From a phage, in NCBI GenBank assembly GCA_028522875.1, contig GCA_028522875.1_3659.1: a stretch of DNA of 64,000 nucleotides. One strand, 5' to 3'. Shown one piece after another: positions 11,282 to 14,974 of this stretch (position 1 is its first letter; every line of letters starts with the position of its first letter). A program made the position numbers and the translations under genes. The notes under the pieces were generated by a model, which saw only the letters and a program-made list of their open reading frames with translations, was not told where the DNA came from and did no database searches.

Positions 11282-11565
11282 GAGTTGCTACACTGTTTAT
11301 TGTGTGCTTGTTATTATGTGGGTGTGCAACCAGTGTTGAGAAAGAATACAAGATTGACCCTCCAGATGTAGGAAGGTTGATTGTTAAACCCCCAGAAGGT
11401 GCCATGAAACCACCTGCTAAAGCTATGCCTTTGAAGAAAGGTGCGCCAGATGCAGTAAATTCTGGCATTATGAGGGATAATAATCTGTCTTGTAGCAATG
11501 ATAGAGCTAAATTGATCATTTTGCAAGACTATATTAGAACACTTTTTCCAAAGGAGAGAGGTTAA
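11278..11565 (+). CDS. putative o-spanin (Rz1-like outer-membrane lipoprotein)
   Basis: 95 aa; signal peptide with Cys in LLCGCA lipobox-like context, Pro-rich mature region (KPPEGAMKPPAKAMP); GGAGGG RBS. Confidence 0.55.
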   Translation: MRVATLFIVCLLLCGCATSVEKEYKIDPPDVGRLIVKPPEGAMKPPAKAMPLKKGAPDAVNSGIMRDNNLSCSNDRAKLIILQDYIRTLFPKERG

Positions 11566-11993
11566 TGTCTAAGATTTACGGACCGTGTTCTGAAAAGCAG
11601 AAGATGATCCTCGAAAACGATGCAGATATTTTGGTAATCGGCGGTGCCGCAGGGTCTGGCAAGTCGTTCCTCTTGCAGTTGATGCCACTTAAAATTATTG
11701 ATGACCCCCACAGCTCTGTGGTTATGTTCCGAAGAACAACCCCGCAGTTGGAAGGTGAGGGTGGACTATGGCCTAAAGCAGTAGCTATTTATAGTGATCT
11801 GCCTGAAAACATTAAGCCAAAGTTTAGAGAGAAGGATCATAAGTTCATTTTTCCACGGTTTGATCCGAGCACTGGCAAGTGGGATAGAAGCAAAAAGGGA
11901 GCTGTTGTAAAATACTGCCACATGGAGTATGTACAAGATAAGCTTAACCATCAGGGGCTTGAGTACACCATGGTTTGCTTCGATGAGGGTTAA
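11565..11993 (+). CDS. terL: terminase large subunit, exon 1 (ATPase N-terminal part)
   Basis: Walker A GGAAGSGKS, Walker B-like MVCFDEG at ORF end; in-frame TAA immediately after GGT codon (likely first intron codon); start overlaps spanin stop (TAATG). Confidence 0.75.
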   Translation: MSKIYGPCSEKQKMILENDADILVIGGAAGSGKSFLLQLMPLKIIDDPHSSVVMFRRTTPQLEGEGGLWPKAVAIYSDLPENIKPKFREKDHKFIFPRFDPSTGKWDRSKKGAVVKYCHMEYVQDKLNHQGLEYTMVCFDEG

Positions 11994-12873
11994 TTTGTAG
12001 CTCTCGTAAAACCTCCCTAATTGCGGGGAAATCTTTATTATTGACACCACCAACCTGTTATGGTAACATAATAGAGGCTTCGAAGAGAGATCGAAGGTAT
12101 GGTAACAGTGTGTTAATTTAGATAATCCGCAGCGAAGCATCCGAGAGGATGAACGTTCAACGACTAGTCGAAAGACGTAGAATCAAGCGATTCGAAACGG
12201 GAGGGTGAATGTGTAATACTAAAAAATGTATGGATTGCCAAAGAGTTCTGCCCATTGATGATTTCTTTTTATCATCTAAGAGCAAGGATGGATACTCAGG
12301 TACATGCAAGGAATGCTATATGTACTACAGGAAGGGTGGATCTCGTAAAAACAAAAATATGGTTAAGAGAGATGACGCAGCATTGTTTATTCAAGACTTG
12401 CTGAAGAAAGGTGAACTTTTTGAATGCAAATCTTGTCATGAAAGTATGCTCGCTGATAGTTTTTACACAAAACGTGACTATGGTAAAGTATATCTGGTTA
12501 CGAACAGGTGTAAGATGTGTGAAAAGTTTTATCAGATTGAGAAGAAATTTCACATAACAAAAGATGAATACTATCGTCTACTCTCAGATCAAGATCATAA
12601 GTGTGCCATTTGTAGAATATCTCTTAATGAGTATAGGACGCAAGGGTACAGAGATTTCTTTTGTGTTGATCATGACCATAAAACTGGTGCTGTAAGAGGG
12701 TTGCTTTGTGATAAATGCAACAGAGCTTTAGGTTTCTTCCAAGAAGATGAGGAAACTATTCTTAGAGCGGCAGAGTATTTACACATTCATAAGATATAGT
12801 CTGGTCTGCATGGAGACATGCAGCTGCCTGAAAATGGCGGGGCAAGACTAGCGACCTTGCCCGAACATAAACG
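11991..12873 (+). mobile_element. group I-like intron 1 in terL carrying HNH endonuclease ORF (boundaries approximate)
   Basis: Interrupts terL between Walker B and downstream exon in a different frame; shares blocks TAATTGCnGGnAAATC and GATATAGTCT..CTGCATG-GNRA-CATGCAG with intron 2; ends with G at 12873 so that exon join is in frame. Confidence 0.6.
12209..12799 (+). CDS. HNH (His-Me finger) homing endonuclease, intron-encoded
   Basis: 196 aa; own GGGAGGG RBS; N-terminal Cys clusters, C-terminal CVDHDHKTGAVRGLLCDKCNRALG HNH motif. Confidence 0.8.
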   Translation: MCNTKKCMDCQRVLPIDDFFLSSKSKDGYSGTCKECYMYYRKGGSRKNKNMVKRDDAALFIQDLLKKGELFECKSCHESMLADSFYTKRDYGKVYLVTNRCKMCEKFYQIEKKFHITKDEYYRLLSDQDHKCAICRISLNEYRTQGYRDFFCVDHDHKTGAVRGLLCDKCNRALGFFQEDEETILRAAEYLHIHKI

Positions 12874-13197
12874 ACACAATTCGAATGGGAGCAGATAGAC
12901 TATCTGATGTCTCGTCTGCGATCTCAGTCAAAGTATCCATCAAGAATGGTTATCAGCTGTAACCCCGATTCAGAACACATGCTTGCCAAACTGGTTAGAT
13001 GGTGGTTGGACGATGAAGGGTATCCAGATCCGGAGAAATGCGGTAAGAAAAGATATTTTATCCGACGCGACGGTGAATTTATATGGGGAGACTCTAAAGA
13101 AGAGTTGATAGAGAAATACACCACGGTTAACGGACTGGGTGTGGAGATCAAGCCAAGACCGTTGTCATTCTCGTTTATAGGCGCAACCATTAAATGA
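12871..13197 (+). CDS. terL: terminase large subunit, exon 2 (ORF-limited coordinates; probable exon about 12874-13195)
   Basis: Frame open from 12871; joining exon 1 end (11990) to 12874 gives in-frame ...MVCFDEG-TQFEWEQIDYLMSRLRSQ...; contains VISCNPD. Confidence 0.6.
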   Translation, partial: TTQFEWEQIDYLMSRLRSQSKYPSRMVISCNPDSEHMLAKLVRWWLDDEGYPDPEKCGKKRYFIRRDGEFIWGDSKEELIEKYTTVNGLGVEIKPRPLSFSFIGATIK

Positions 13198-14174
13198 TAG
13201 TGGCTTCGTGCAGAAATGCACGTCGAATAACTTCGTTAATTGCTGGAAAATCCGATTGCTAAACGGACAATCAGCAGCTATAATTACCCTTCCGAACCTG
13301 TAGTAGGGAGATGTTTGAAATGAAAAATTTAGGCTTTTTAGGCTACAATCATTATTGTGCTACATACGATGGCAGAATTTACAGTCTGTATTCTAATAAA
13401 TTCCTCCATCCTAATGTGCAGAAAAAGACTGGTTATGCTATGGTAACTTTGTGCGAGGACGGTAAAAAGTTCCAAGTGCTCGTTCACAGAGTGATTGCTA
13501 TGACTTTTGTTGATAATGATAATCCCAGCGTGAAAACTCAAGTAAATCACCTTGATGGCAATAAGTTGAATAACGCCGCATGGAACCTTGAGTGGACAAC
13601 ACCTGAGGAAAACACACATCATGCTCATGAAATGGGACTTAAAAAGGACTATGTCAATAAATACAGGTCCCTAGATGATGCCACTGCTCTTGAAATATGT
13701 AGACTGTTAGAGCAAGGTGCAAGGGTAAAAGACATTTGTGAAATGTTTGGTGTCAATCAACCACTTGTAAGTGGTATAAAGAATGGCTCAGTATACCCAG
13801 ATATTTCTAAAGAGTTTAACTTTAGAAAAGTGCCAACCTCTAATAGGATAAGTGAGCACAAGATAATAGGTATCTGCGAGGATCTTAGTGATAGGGTTTT
13901 GTGTGTAAATAAAATAGCTAAGAAGTGGGGCGTAAGTTTTAGTGTTGTTAAAGGAATAAAAGACCGTAAGACTTACACCTATATTTCAAACAATTACGAT
14001 TGGTAATGTAGTTCAACGACTATCCCGAGAGGGAGTAGGGCGCAAGCTTATGGCGCTCGAAAAGCGAAGCACCCTGAGATGGGTGGTGATATAGTCTACT
14101 CTGCATGGTAACATGCAGCGGCACGTAATGGTGCGGAGGGTGGTGTTGCGACCACCTTTGAATATAAGGATTCG
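13196..14174 (+). mobile_element. group I-like intron 2 in terL carrying second HNH endonuclease ORF (boundaries approximate)
   Basis: Paralogous to intron 1: TAATTGCTGGAAAATC at 13237-13252, GATATAGTCT-CTGCATG-GTAA-CATGCAG at 14087-14118, P9-like hairpin with GCGAC loop; exact splice sites not resolvable by eye. Confidence 0.5.
13311..14006 (+). CDS. HNH homing endonuclease (HNH_3-like), intron-encoded
   Basis: 231 aa; own AGGGAG RBS; motif VNHLDGNKLNNAAWNLEWTTPEENTHHA typical of phage HNH homing endonucleases. Confidence 0.8.
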   Translation: MFEMKNLGFLGYNHYCATYDGRIYSLYSNKFLHPNVQKKTGYAMVTLCEDGKKFQVLVHRVIAMTFVDNDNPSVKTQVNHLDGNKLNNAAWNLEWTTPEENTHHAHEMGLKKDYVNKYRSLDDATALEICRLLEQGARVKDICEMFGVNQPLVSGIKNGSVYPDISKEFNFRKVPTSNRISEHKIIGICEDLSDRVLCVNKIAKKWGVSFSVVKGIKDRKTYTYISNNYDW

Positions 14175-14974
14175 ATAATCCTGTCTGCTTAAGAGACAAC
14201 CCAGAATACCTTGCTTTCCTTGAAGGTCTGCCGGAACTGGAAAAAGCTCAGCTTCTTCATGGCAACTGGTTTGCAAAGCCTGAGGGTGCAAACTATTTTC
14301 AAAGATCTTTCCTTCGTGATGCCGATAGAGTACCCCTTGGGTCAGTATCTTGCAGGGCATGGGATAAGGCAGGAACCGAGAGAACTTCCGGTAATAAATT
14401 TCCTGACTTTACTGCCAGTATTAAGGTAAGTAAAGATAGCGACGGCTTTTATTACCTGTCCGGTGATTATTGTCCTGAGAACGTGGATGACGGGAGGTAT
14501 TCCACAGGTCTGGAAGGCAAGTTCTGTAAAAAGGCTGGTGAACGAGATGTGATCATCAGGAAACAGGCGCAGTTCGATGGTGATGATTGCATAATCGTCT
14601 TCTCTGTGGACCCAGGACAGGCAGGTAAGAGTGAGTTCTTAACCTCATCCAGATCCTTGCTCGCAGAAGGGTTCAGGGTTGAAGAAGACCCAATGCCTTC
14701 CAACAAGTCTAAACTGACAAGGTTCTCACCTTTTGCCAATCTTGCCCAACAAGGGATGGTGAGGATTGTAAAATCCAGTTTCCATCCTGATACTCTGGAA
14801 GCATTTCTGACCGAACTTGAAAAATTCAACGGGGAAAGATCAACATTTAACAGAAAAGACGACTGGGCTGACTGTGTAGCTTCTGCAATTAATTTCCTGG
14901 AGAAAGAGGAGGTAGCACTTCCTTGTGTGATTCCATCAATCTCATCACCTTCTATGTTCAAGCGTTTTATCTAA
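14168..14974 (+). CDS. terL: terminase large subunit, exon 3 (nuclease C-terminal part; 5' end approximate)
   Basis: Frame open from 14168 without ATG until 14483; contains LLHGNWF and FSVDPGQAGKSEF...DDWADC consistent with terminase RNase-H-like nuclease domain; ORF-track 14211..14429 is another frame. Confidence 0.65.
   Translation, partial: GFDNPVCLRDNPEYLAFLEGLPELEKAQLLHGNWFAKPEGANYFQRSFLRDADRVPLGSVSCRAWDKAGTERTSGNKFPDFTASIKVSKDSDGFYYLSGDYCPENVDDGRYSTGLEGKFCKKAGERDVIIRKQAQFDGDDCIIVFSVDPGQAGKSEFLTSSRSLLAEGFRVEEDPMPSNKSKLTRFSPFANLAQQGMVRIVKSSFHPDTLEAFLTELEKFNGERSTFNRKDDWADCVASAINFLEKEEVALPCVIPSISSPSMFKRFI

What the first reader, a model, noticed from the sequence alone, without database searches (positions are those of the whole stretch)
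11565..14974. Terminase large-subunit gene split into three exons by two related group I-like introns, each with its own HNH endonuclease ORF
The three terL ORF segments (Walker A/B ATPase; middle; nuclease with LLHGNWF) lie in three different frames and are separated by 0.9-1.0 kb inserts. Each insert carries an HNH ORF with its own RBS. Exon 1 ends GGT followed directly by TAA, so the stop is probably the first intron codon; a splice from 11990 to 12874, after a G, restores the frame (…FDEG-TQFEWEQ…). Both inserts share TAATTGCnGGnAAATC about 40 nt from the 5' end and GATATAGTCT-CTGCATG-GNRA-CATGCAG plus a GCGAC-loop hairpin near the 3' end, which argues for paralogous self-splicing introns rather than free-standing endonuclease genes. 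Exact splice sites of intron 2 could not be fixed by eye.
Basis: partly seen in the sequence, partly recalled or inferred. Interest (0 to 1): 0.8.

Follow-up and report, generated by a model that had tools for sequence, protein, structure and literature searches.

The report
Two known introns splitting phage terminase

Summary
The window is a Vequintavirus (rV5-like coliphage), about 98% identical here to HdK5, phiWec193 and others.

- **Gene structure:** terL has three exons (11565-11990, 12874-13190, 14170-14974) and two group I introns (11991-12873, 883 nt; 13191-14169, 979 nt).
- **Boundaries:** I fixed them against natural intron-less alleles. The spliced product is 515 aa with no stop and is identical to the uninterrupted FFH2 TerL.
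- **Intron features:** both 5' exons end in U paired to G in P1, and both introns end in G. Natural ORF-less copies of each intron score 84-88 bits on Rfam Intron_gpI (cut-off 50). The intron 2 family shows strong covariation.
- **Endonuclease genes:** HEG1 (in P8) is an endonuclease-VII-type HNH. HEG2 (in P6a) is I-HmuI-like.
- **Not paralogs:** each intron resembles the T4 td or phi92 nrdD intron more than it resembles the other.
- **Prior knowledge:** Kropinski et al. 2013 described "Introns in terminase" for rV5, and GenBank records carry joined CDSs.
- **Added value:** exact splice sites, an eight-state presence/absence polymorphism, and exon variants at the P1 pairing positions that are perfectly linked to intron presence.

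The parts
11565..11990 (+). terL exon 1 (142 codons; Walker A GAAGSGKS; ends ...MVCFDEG, i.e. just after the Walker B Asp-Glu). The last base is U.
   Evidence: ORF list. BLAST break points fall at CDS nt 426/427 in 12 related alleles. Translation.
11991..12873 (+). Intron 1, a group I intron (IA2-like, with an extended P5 and no P2), 883 nt. It begins with TAA and ends with G.
   Evidence: Rfam RF00028 gives 47 bits, E 4.6e-10. The ORF-less allele scores 84-85 bits. The interval is exactly absent from PDX, FFH2 and others. All helices pair.
11985..12005 (+). Intron 1 P1: exon GAGGGU|UA pairs with the internal guide UAGCUCUC, with a U.G wobble at the 5' splice site.
   Evidence: 8 of 8 pairs form. 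The exon base U(-1) is present only in intron-bearing alleles.
12209..12799 (+). HEG1: 196-aa HNH / endonuclease-VII-type endonuclease ORF in the P8 loop. Its Shine-Dalgarno GGGAGG (12199-12204) is the P3 3' strand, its AUG lies in the P8 5' strand, and its stop UAG lies in the P7 3' strand.
   Evidence: Pfam PF02945, 76.7 bits. PDB matches to Hpy99I and T4 endonuclease VII. Helix coordinates.
12874..13190 (+). terL exon 2 (317 nt).
   Evidence: An in-frame TAA sits at 12868, two codons upstream.
13191..14169 (+). Intron 2, a group I intron (IA2-like, with P2, P7.1, P7.2, P9.1 and P9.2), 979 nt. It begins with TAA and ends with G.
   Evidence: Rfam finds the two halves at 24.3 and 34.8 bits. 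The ORF-less allele scores 87.5 bits. The interval is exactly absent from Bas58, FFH2 and others. Covariation: 32 of 72 pairs carry compensatory changes.
13187..13203 (+). Intron 2 P1: exon CCAU|UA pairs with UAGUGG, with a U.G wobble at the 5' splice site.
   Evidence: The exon base C(-3) is present only in intron-bearing alleles.
13256..13284 (+). Sigma-70-like promoter match (TTGCTA-17-TATAAT) inside intron 2, just upstream of HEG2. Its -10 element lies in the P6/P6a strand that is specific to the HEG-bearing form.
   Evidence: Consensus scan. The same position in nepoznato reads TTGACA-17-TATAAT. This is inference only.
13311..14006 (+). HEG2: I-HmuI-like HNH endonuclease ORF in the P6a loop (231 aa from 13311). 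The likelier start is the ATG at 13320, which is the start used by the TH18 and nepoznato homologues. Its stop UAA lies in the P6a 3' strand.
   Evidence: Pfam HNH_3 plus HTH. PDB 1U3E (I-HmuI), E 3e-11. Homologue starts.
14170..14974 (+). terL exon 3 (end of the ATPase domain including LLHGNWF, then the RNaseH-like nuclease domain, then the stop codon).
   Evidence: There is no in-frame start codon between 14168 and 14483.
15024..15045 (+). Intrinsic terminator after terL.
   Evidence: Terminator scan. Annotated as a rho-independent terminator in the rV5 record.

Best explanation
The window comes from an rV5-like coliphage (Vequintavirus). Its large terminase gene carries two independent, mobile group I introns of the phage IA2 type.

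**How it works**
- The terL pre-mRNA is transcribed through both introns.
- Each intron folds into a P1-P9 ribozyme and removes itself by the standard guanosine-initiated two-step transesterification. This joins 11990 to 12874 and 13190 to 14170.
- Translation of the spliced mRNA then gives a 515-aa TerL.
- Before splicing, translation stops at the TAA that opens each intron.

**The endonuclease genes**
- HEG1 is endonuclease-VII-like and sits in the P8 loop of intron 1. HEG2 is I-HmuI-like and sits in the P6a loop of intron 2.
- Each endonuclease presumably cuts or nicks intron-less terL alleles of co-infecting relatives. Recombinational repair then copies the intron and nearby exon bases into the recipient (homing with co-conversion).

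**Shown here**
- The exact boundaries.
- Group I core sequence and structure.
- Covariation for intron 2.
- Identity of the spliced product with intron-less TerL.
- Endonuclease family membership.
- Population polymorphism with linked exon flanks.

**Inferred, not shown**
- Splicing in vivo.
- Endonuclease activity and target sites.
- Use of the internal promoter.
For: **Identity of the phage**
- The region is 98% identical across 11400-15200 to HdK5, phiWec193/196 and others.

**Covariance-model support**
- Rfam RF00028 gives 47 bits (E 4.6e-10) for intron 1. It finds the two halves of intron 2 at 34.8 and 24.3 bits.
- Natural ORF-less alleles of the same introns score 84.1-84.9 bits (intron 1, 319-320 nt) and 87.5 bits (intron 2, 268 nt). 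The gathering score is 50.

**Intron-less alleles**
- They lack exactly these intervals.
- All 13 spliced or uninterrupted CDSs are 1548 nt with 0-2 amino-acid differences. FFH2 and C9 are identical to the window product.

**Splice-site rules and helices**
- Both 5' exons end in U paired with G, and both introns end in G.
- Every proposed helix is fully paired.

**Covariation in the intron 2 family**
- 98.6% of cells are paired and 32 of 72 pairs carry compensatory changes.
- 0 of 500 shuffles reach the observed values. Slid controls give 2-7 such pairs.
- P1 covaries with the exon when the same intron lineage sits at another terL site, in Pseudoalteromonas phage J2-1.

**Linked exon bases**
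- Exon bases that pair in P1 are perfectly linked to intron presence. For intron 1 this also covers two bases of a proposed weak P10 pairing.
- Site 1: GGT|ACA CAA in 6 of 6 intron-bearing alleles, against GG(C/A) ACG CA(G/A) in 7 of 7 intron-less alleles.
- Site 2: ACC AT|A in 6 of 6, against ACA AT|A in 7 of 7.

**Independent translation is ruled out**
- An in-frame TAA lies two codons upstream of each 3' splice site.
- Exon 3 has no in-frame start codon for its first 104 codons.

**Endonuclease families**
-.

**Literature**
- rV5 'Introns in terminase' (PMC3606486).
- The rV5 and Bas58 records carry joined terL CDSs.
- RT-PCR showed splicing of the terL intron in a phage of the same subfamily, CB7 (PMC7344957).
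Against: - There is no transcript or protein evidence for this phage or for rV5 itself. TerL was not among the rV5 proteins identified by mass spectrometry.
- The window's own ORF-containing copies fall below the Rfam gathering score: 47 bits, and 34.8 plus 24.3 bits, against 50.
- Covariation support for intron 1 is thin. Full-length homologues are all at least 98% identical, and only a few one- or two-sided changes plus an alternative P8 stem were seen by eye.
- P10 pairings are short: 3-4 bp.
- Endonuclease activity and target sites are untested.
Confidence: 0.95

Rival explanations
1. The inserts are non-splicing endonuclease insertions, like mobE in the Aeromonas phage Aeh1 nrdA gene. TerL would then be made as three separate polypeptides that assemble after translation.
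For: - Such split genes exist in phages. One HNH-associated insertion in CB7 did not splice (PMC7344957).
- Many GenBank records annotate the pieces as separate 'terminase' CDSs.
Against: - A complete group I core is present, with covariation.
- Exon 3 has no in-frame start codon for 104 codons, which include conserved ATPase motifs.
- Exon 2's first ATG is 11 codons into the exon and has no Shine-Dalgarno sequence.
- Exon bases that pair with the intron guide sequence are linked to intron presence. That only makes sense if P1 matters.
Confidence: 0.02
2. The two introns are recent paralogs, one having arisen from the other by duplication or transposition within terL.
For: - Core motifs are shared at 12018/13237, 12155/14011 and 12793/14088.
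- P1 architecture is similar in both: U|UAA...UAG.
Against: - The intron 1 and intron 2 cores align over only 50 nt at 78% (39.7 bits).
- Intron 1 against the T4 td intron gives 132 nt and 79.7 bits. Intron 2 against the phi92 nrdD intron gives 133 nt and 89.7 bits.
- Intron 1 lacks P2 and has a large P5 extension; intron 2 is the opposite.
- The endonuclease genes belong to different families and sit in different loops, P8 versus P6a.
- The introns occur independently in the population.
- Intron 2 has orthologues at the same site in TH18 and nepoznato, which lack intron 1.
Confidence: 0.04
3. The introns splice, but they are now immobile passengers. The endonuclease genes would be inactive relics, and the presence/absence pattern would reflect ordinary recombination and loss rather than active homing.
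For: - ORF-less derivatives of both introns are common.
- No activity data exist.
- The HNH_3 score of HEG2 is only just above its cut-off (28 against 24.8 bits).
Against: - Both ORFs are intact and have the same length in every HEG-bearing record sampled. The intron sizes are constant at 883 and 979 nt.
- Intron sequences are 98-100% conserved across phages whose exons differ by 2-5%.
- Junction-proximal exon variants are perfectly linked to intron presence, as expected from co-conversion.
- The catalytic region DHDHKTG...CDKCN is retained.
Confidence: 0.15

Closest known systems
Escherichia phage rV5 terL (ORF64ABC; Kropinski et al. 2013, Virol J 10:76, section 'Introns in terminase'; NC_011041 joined CDS)
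   Same: - Same gene, same two insertion sites and same two introns. Exons are 98% identical.
- Intron 2 with its I-HmuI-like endonuclease gene is 97.9% identical.
   Different: - rV5 carries the 319-nt ORF-less form of intron 1, with a short alternative P8.
- The window carries the 883-nt form with the endonuclease-VII-type gene.
BASEL phages Bas58 (HeinrichReichert), MaxBurger and WalterGehring. Also HdK5, phiWec193/196 and the 'Campylobacter phage' A140-A142 records.
   Same: - Bas58-type records annotate intron 1 plus HEG1 as a joined terL CDS with a 'putative homing endonuclease'.
- HdK5, phiWec193 and A141 have exactly the window's two-intron, two-endonuclease layout (3410-nt span).
   Different: - Bas58 lacks intron 2.
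- HdK5 and phiWec193 are annotated as separate fragments or hypothetical proteins, not as a spliced gene.
Phage T4 td intron with I-TevI (group IA2)
   Same: - Same ribozyme subgroup architecture, with P7.1/P7.2 and a 3' P9 extension.
- The intron 1 core aligns over 132 nt at 73%; the last 80 nt are 82% identical.
- A stop codon lies at the very start of the intron, and an endonuclease ORF is looped out of a peripheral helix.
   Different: - The host gene differs (thymidylate synthase).
- The endonuclease belongs to the GIY-YIG family.
- Splicing of the td intron is experimentally proven, which is not the case here.
Bacillus phage SPO1/SP82 DNA polymerase introns encoding I-HmuI / I-HmuII
   Same: HEG2 is a sequence homologue of I-HmuI (PDB 1U3E, E 3e-11): an HNH nicking endonuclease encoded in a phage group I intron.
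   Different: The host gene, target site and phage lineage differ. Nicking activity is not tested here.
terL introns of Lactobacillus phage LL-H and Pectobacterium phage CB7 (Certrevirus, Vequintavirinae)
   Same: A group I intron with an endonuclease gene interrupts terL. CB7 splicing was shown by RT-PCR and sequencing (PMC7344957).
   Different: Sequences differ, and I did not compare the insertion sites. Each of these has a single terL intron.

Membership tests
Group I intron (Rfam RF00028 Intron_gpI) | Covariance-model score at or above the curated gathering score (50 bits) | tested here: met
   The window copies, which carry ORF insertions of about 0.6-0.7 kb, score 47 bits (intron 1) and 34.8 plus 24.3 bits (the two halves of intron 2). 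These are below the cut-off. The natural ORF-less alleles of the same introns are about 98% identical in the core and score 84.1-84.9 and 87.5 bits.
Group I intron | The 5' exon ends in U, which forms a U.G wobble with the internal guide sequence in P1; the intron ends in G (omega-G) | tested here: met
   Intron 1: GAGGGU|UA pairs with UAGCUCUC, and the intron ends ...AAACG. Intron 2: CCAU|UA pairs with UAGUGG, and the intron ends ...UAAGG.
Group I intron | Conserved core helices P3-P9 with the P3/P7 pseudoknot, supported by covariation | tested here: met
   Intron 2 family (5 sequences): 72 pairs, 98.6% paired, 32 pairs with compensatory changes, 0 of 500 shuffles reaching the observed values. 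P7 and P7.1 are invariant, so they are uninformative.
Group I intron | Covariation support specifically for intron 1 | tested here: inconclusive
   All helices pair in the window sequence. Full-length homologues are all at least 98% identical. I saw only a few compatible changes in P5a and P5b and an alternative P8 stem in the ORF-less form.
Group I intron | Precise removal restores an uninterrupted, conserved reading frame | tested here: met
   The spliced CDS is 1548 nt and encodes 515 aa. The product is identical to intron-less FFH2 TerL. Break points fall at nt 426/427 and 743/744 in all 12 compared alleles.
Group I intron | Guanosine-dependent self-splicing in vitro, or spliced mRNA in vivo | not testable with these tools
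   The only analogous evidence is RT-PCR splicing of the terL intron in Certrevirus CB7 (PMC7344957).
Subgroup IA2 (T4 td-like phage introns) | Extra helices P7.1/P7.2 between P7 and P3', and sequence similarity to reference IA2 introns | tested here: met
   P7.1 and P7.2 are at 12167-12193 and 14023-14058. Alignments to the T4 td intron score 79.7 bits (intron 1) and 61.1 bits (intron 2). The subgroup definition comes from established knowledge, not from a curated model.
HNH homing endonuclease, I-HmuI-like (HEG2) | HNH_3 domain plus a C-terminal helix-turn-helix DNA-binding region, and homology to I-HmuI | tested here: met
   PF13392 at 28 bits against a cut-off of 24.8. HTH_23 at 24.2 bits, just below its 24.6 cut-off. 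PDB 1U3E, E 3e-11 over residues 11-154. Cleavage activity was not tested.
Endonuclease VII-type HNH (His-Me finger) nuclease (HEG1) | PF02945 domain with the DH..N..CxxC catalytic/zinc motif | tested here: met
   PF02945 at 76.7 bits against a cut-off of 23.6. PDB matches to Hpy99I (E 1e-5) and T4 endonuclease VII (E 1e-4), with DHDHKTG...CDKCN aligned. A homing function is inferred only.
Large terminase subunit (T4-type Terminase_6N / 6C) | N-terminal ATPase and C-terminal RNaseH-like nuclease domains contiguous in one polypeptide | tested here: met
   On the spliced product, PF03237 covers residues 25-294 (72.6 bits) across both exon junctions. PF17289 covers residues 394-489 (27 bits).
Free-standing or non-splicing endonuclease insertion giving a split gene (Aeh1 mobE / nrdA type) | Each gene fragment has its own translation start and is made as a separate polypeptide | tested here: not met
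   Exon 3 has no in-frame ATG, GTG or TTG from 14168 to 14483. In-frame stops lie two codons before both 3' splice sites.
Intein | In-frame insertion translated together with the host protein | tested here: not met
   Both inserts open with an in-frame TAA, and the exons are in three different frames.

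The most novel reading that the evidence does not exclude
The Vequintavirus terL locus is a live snapshot of the whole homing cycle. It may also be a battleground between co-infecting phages.

- At least eight allelic states coexist among phages with about 98% identical exons: no intron, either intron with or without its endonuclease gene, and the combinations.
- The ORF-less forms carry different distal stems, so they are not clean deletions.
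- The endonuclease cassettes seem to bring their own sigma-70-like promoter.
- The synonymous exon bases that pair in P1/P10 are perfectly linked to intron presence.

The unexcluded novel reading is that the two endonucleases act as interference weapons. They would cut the terL of intron-less competitors and drag flanking packaging and portal genes along, in the way I-HmuI/I-HmuII do in SPO1/SP82. On this reading the linked exon variants double as cleavage-site or immunity differences rather than only as splicing optimisations.
Probability: 0.3. Interest if true: 0.4.

Novelty: already known. Interest (0 to 1): 0.15.

Why it matters
Practical value:
- Gene callers and many deposited Vequintavirus records split this terL into 'terminase-like' fragments and hypothetical proteins. 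The exact splice coordinates allow correct joined annotation. They also guard against using the raw locus in terL-based phylogeny or packaging-type prediction.

Biological value:
- It is one more clear case of homing-endonuclease-bearing group I introns sitting in the most conserved motifs of an essential phage gene. Intron 1 follows the Walker B motif, and intron 2 sits at GATI|FDNP.
- The rich natural polymorphism would make a convenient system for measuring homing, co-conversion and intron loss among therapeutic-type coliphages.

It does not reveal a new kind of element.

Tried and rejected
- **Rfam at gathering thresholds:** the scan of the whole window found only tRNAs. The introns appeared only with E-value thresholds. 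The ORF insertions depress the score, as the ORF-less alleles show.
- **Other introns in the window:** none found.
- **P3 assignment error:** my first helix assignment for intron 2 picked the wrong CTTCGT copy for P3. I corrected it before the covariation count.
- **Intron 1 P5 coordinates:** one search printed a wrong 3' partner for intron 1 P5 (12088-12091). The correct partner, read from the sequence, is AGAT at 12120-12123.
- **Rejected mechanisms:**
  - Translational bypass or frameshifting: the gaps of 883 and 979 nt are far too long.
  - Inteins: in-frame stops, and the exons are in different frames.
  - Group II introns: no RT ORF, and the group I core fits.
  - terL pseudogene: phages with the same layout are plaque-forming isolates.
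- **HNH proteins as packaging cofactors:** I considered that the HNH proteins might be obligatory terminase cofactors (the HK97-type HNH of Kala et al.). I rejected this because near-identical phages lack one or both of them.
- **Searches not run:** large protein-database searches, structure prediction and metagenome scans. The annotated phage collection already answered the question.
- **J2/3 complementarity in intron 2:** UCGAAU (13223-13228) is complementary to the first 6 nt of exon 3. I noted this but did not pursue it. It is not the canonical P10 position and could be chance.

Full report
**1. What the window is**

Megablast of 11400-15200 against GenBank phages finds full-length matches at about 98% identity. 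These include Escherichia phages HdK5 and phiWec193/196 and several records labelled 'Campylobacter phage' A13b and A140-A142. About 120 other Vequintavirus (rV5-like) genomes match only 74-85% of the query.

The genes around the finding fit the rV5 map:
- two spanin genes upstream (10883-11565);
- a portal gene downstream (15077-16633);
- an intrinsic terminator at 15024-15045.

**2. Checking the observation**

- The three terL pieces lie in three frames, and GGT at 11988-11990 is followed directly by TAA.
- The inserts are 883 and 979 nt. Each holds one intact ORF.
  - ORF 12209-12799 matches Pfam Endonuclease_7 (76.7 bits). In the PDB it matches Hpy99I and T4 endonuclease VII, with the DHDHKTG...CDKCN motif aligned.
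  - ORF 13311-14006 matches HNH_3 plus a helix-turn-helix. In the PDB it matches the SPO1 intron endonuclease I-HmuI (1U3E, E 3e-11).
- The shared motifs occur only in the two inserts in 64 kb, where 0-0.25 matches are expected by chance.

**3. Exact boundaries**

Natural alleles settle the splice sites.
- Phage PDX lacks insert 1 and Bas58 (HeinrichReichert) lacks insert 2. FFH2, nomine, Murica and Bas59 lack both.
- I compared the conceptually spliced CDS with 12 related loci. The break points fall at CDS nt 426/427 and 743/744 in all of them.
- Combined with the group I rules (the 5' exon ends in U, the intron ends in G), this gives:
  - exon 1: 11565-11990;
  - intron 1: 11991-12873;
  - exon 2: 12874-13190;
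  - intron 2: 13191-14169;
  - exon 3: 14170-14974.
The 5' site of intron 2 is 13190/13191, not about 13195.
- The spliced CDS is 1548 nt and encodes 515 aa with no internal stop. Its product is identical to the uninterrupted FFH2 TerL.
- On the spliced protein, Terminase_6N aligns across both junctions (residues 25-294) and Terminase_6C follows at residues 394-489.
- Intron 1 sits directly after the Walker B motif (MVCFDEG|TQF). Intron 2 sits at GATI|FDNP.

**4. Are they group I introns?**

- Rfam at gathering thresholds reports nothing here.
- With E-value reporting, Intron_gpI matches intron 1 end to end (47 bits, E 4.6e-10). It matches intron 2 as two halves (24.3 and 34.8 bits).
- The shortfall is caused by the ORF insertions. 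The natural ORF-less versions of the same introns in A135 and rV5 score 84.1-84.9 bits (intron 1, 319-320 nt) and 87.5 bits (intron 2, 268 nt). The cut-off is 50.
- Their minimum-free-energy folds recover most core helices, with z-scores of about -3.4.
- I could place every helix in the window sequence with full pairing.
  - Intron 1: P1, P3, P4, P5 with a P5a/b/c extension, P6/6a, P7, P7.1, P7.2, P8, P9, P9.1 and P9.2. It has no P2.
  - Intron 2: P1-P9.2 including P2.
  - One coordinate is wrong. The 3' strand of intron 1 P5 is AGAT at 12120-12123, as read from the sequence.
- Both 5' splice sites have the U.G wobble.
- Intron 2 has diverged homologues, which allowed a covariation test:
  - the same terL site in TH18 (78% identical);
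  - the same terL site in the Phapecoctavirus nepoznato (67%);
  - another terL site in Pseudoalteromonas phage J2-1.
- On the five-sequence alignment, 98.6% of cells pair and 32 of 72 pairs carry compensatory changes. No shuffle out of 500 reaches the observed values, and slid controls give 2-7 such pairs. P1 changes together with the exon in J2-1.
- For intron 1, covariation evidence is thin because all full-length copies are at least 98% identical.

**5. Against independent translation of the pieces**

- An in-frame TAA lies two codons upstream of each 3' splice site.
- Exon 3 has no in-frame ATG, GTG or TTG for its first 104 codons. Exon 2's first ATG is 11 codons into the exon and has no Shine-Dalgarno sequence.
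- Phages with this exact layout are viable isolates, so a full-length TerL must be made. This last step is inference.

**6. Anatomy of the endonuclease cassettes**

- HEG1 is looped out of a 12-bp P8. Its Shine-Dalgarno GGGAGG is the 3' strand of P3, its AUG lies in the 5' strand of P8, and its stop UAG lies inside the P7 3' strand GAUAUAGUC. Ribozyme folding should therefore occlude translation initiation of HEG1. This is inference.
- HEG2 is looped out of P6a, and its stop UAA lies in the P6a 3' strand. The likelier start is the ATG at 13320, because this is the start used by the TH18 and nepoznato homologues.
- A sigma-70-like promoter match (TTGCTA-17-TATAAT, 13256-13284) lies just upstream of HEG2. 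Its -10 element is in the P6 strand that exists only in the HEG-bearing form. Nepoznato has a perfect TTGACA-17-TATAAT at the same place. This is a consensus match, not evidence of function.

**7. Are the two introns paralogs?**

No evidence supports this beyond membership of the same subgroup.
- The ORF-less cores align to each other over only 50 nt (78%, 39.7 bits).
- Intron 1 aligns to the T4 td intron over 132 nt (79.7 bits).
- Intron 2 aligns to the phi92 nrdD intron over 133 nt (89.7 bits).
- They differ in peripheral architecture, in endonuclease family and in the loop that carries the ORF.
- They occur independently in the population.

**8. Population picture**

The length spanned by the spliced-CDS match classifies each record. 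In a systematic sample of 50 Vequintavirus records I counted:

| State | Span (nt) | Records |
|---|---|---|
| No intron | 1548 (one record 1556) | 23 |
| ORF-less intron 1 only | about 1867 | 6 |
| Intron 1 + HEG1 only | 2431 | 12 |
| Intron 2 + HEG2 only | 2527 | 1 |
| ORF-less intron 2 only | about 1815 | 2 |
| ORF-less intron 1 plus intron 2 + HEG2 (rV5) | 2846 | 1 |
| Both introns with endonuclease genes (the window's state) | 3410 | 3 |
| Both introns ORF-less | about 2135 | 2 |

- A second listing of the 60 best hits shows the same classes.
- The ORF-less forms have different distal P8 and P6 stems, so they are not simple deletions of the ORF.
- In 13 aligned alleles, the synonymous exon bases next to the junctions are perfectly linked to intron presence.
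  - Site 1: GGT|ACA CAA with the intron, against GG(C/A) ACG CA(G/A) without it.
  - Site 2: ACC AT|A with the intron, against ACA AT|A without it.
  - These are the bases that pair with the guide sequence in P1. For intron 1 they also include two bases of a proposed weak P10 pairing.
  - The linkage fits co-conversion during homing, selection for splicing, or both.
- TH18 has a further ORF-less intron at HQG|L, and J2-1 has one near NHQG. terL in this wider group therefore has at least four insertion sites.

**9. Comparison with what is known**

- Kropinski et al. 2013 (PMC3606486) has a section 'Introns in terminase'. [quoted passage not shown] - The rV5 RefSeq record carries a three-part joined CDS (ORF64ABC). 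The BASEL record Bas58 carries a two-part join with a 'putative homing endonuclease'.
- RT-PCR and sequencing showed splicing of a terL intron in the same subfamily, in Certrevirus CB7 (PMC7344957).
- terL introns are also known from Lactobacillus phage LL-H and others.
- The only difference from rV5 is that the window's intron 1 carries its endonuclease gene. That state is already present in many deposited genomes.

**10. Verdict**

The feature is already known, so interest is low. This check adds:
- exact splice coordinates;
- the structural map;
- the allele census;
- the junction-linked exon variants.

Noticed in passing
window 10118-10216 (+), within the tRNA cluster 9649-10461: The cluster holds seven tRNA-like genes: Arg-tct, Tyr-gta, Ser-tga, Thr-tgt, Met-cat, Pro-tgg and one odd 99-nt member. 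ARAGORN reads the odd one with a 4-base anticodon 'atcc', and Rfam tRNA scores it at only 31 bits. It folds as a cloverleaf-like structure with a long extra arm (z -3.8). Its identity is unresolved.
   Followed up: partly
window 13256-13284 and 12041-12069 (+): Sigma-70-like promoter matches lie inside both introns, upstream of the endonuclease ORFs: TTGCTA-17-TATAAT before HEG2 and TTGACA-17-TAACAT before HEG1. The HEG2 match is conserved, and is a perfect consensus in phage nepoznato (L005). Its -10 element is absent from the ORF-less intron form.
   Followed up: partly
window 13223-13228 versus 14170-14175: In intron 2 the J2/3 segment UCGAAU is perfectly complementary to the first six bases of exon 3 (AUUCGA). 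The pairing stays compatible, through a G.U pair, in nepoznato, where the exon reads AUUUGA. This is not the canonical P10 position. It could be chance or a non-canonical 3'-exon alignment.
   Followed up: partly
GenBank MG0656xx records (e.g. L006 = MG065690, L013 = MG065661): About 18 'UNVERIFIED: Campylobacter phage' genomes with host given as C. jejuni are classified as Vequintavirus. They are about 97-99% identical to E. coli rV5-like phages at this locus, so the host label looks doubtful.
   Followed up: no
L004 (phage TH18) 899-1149; L007 (Pseudoalteromonas phage J2-1) about 1210-2150: Relatives have further terL introns at other sites. TH18 has an ORF-less intron after ...LDHQG (Rfam 34 bits). 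J2-1 has an intron of the intron-2 lineage with an I-HmuI-like gene near NHQG, and its P1 is re-matched to the new exon. terL in this group therefore has at least four intron insertion sites.
   Followed up: partly
NC_041937 (phage V18) and OV101294 (phage Alma), terL: Their terL matches span 1556 and 1547 nt instead of 1548. This suggests small indels or frameshifts, or sequencing errors, in otherwise intron-less alleles. V18 is annotated with two terminase CDSs.
   Followed up: no
ON075799 (TH18) 24564-24614; MW883061 (SYGMH1) 79212-79343; phi92-like nrdD genes (L017): Related IA2 intron cores occur in other genes of related phages, for example the anaerobic ribonucleotide reductase nrdD of phi92-like phages and of the Vequintavirus SYGMH1. 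The 64-kb window itself has no other group I intron.
   Followed up: no
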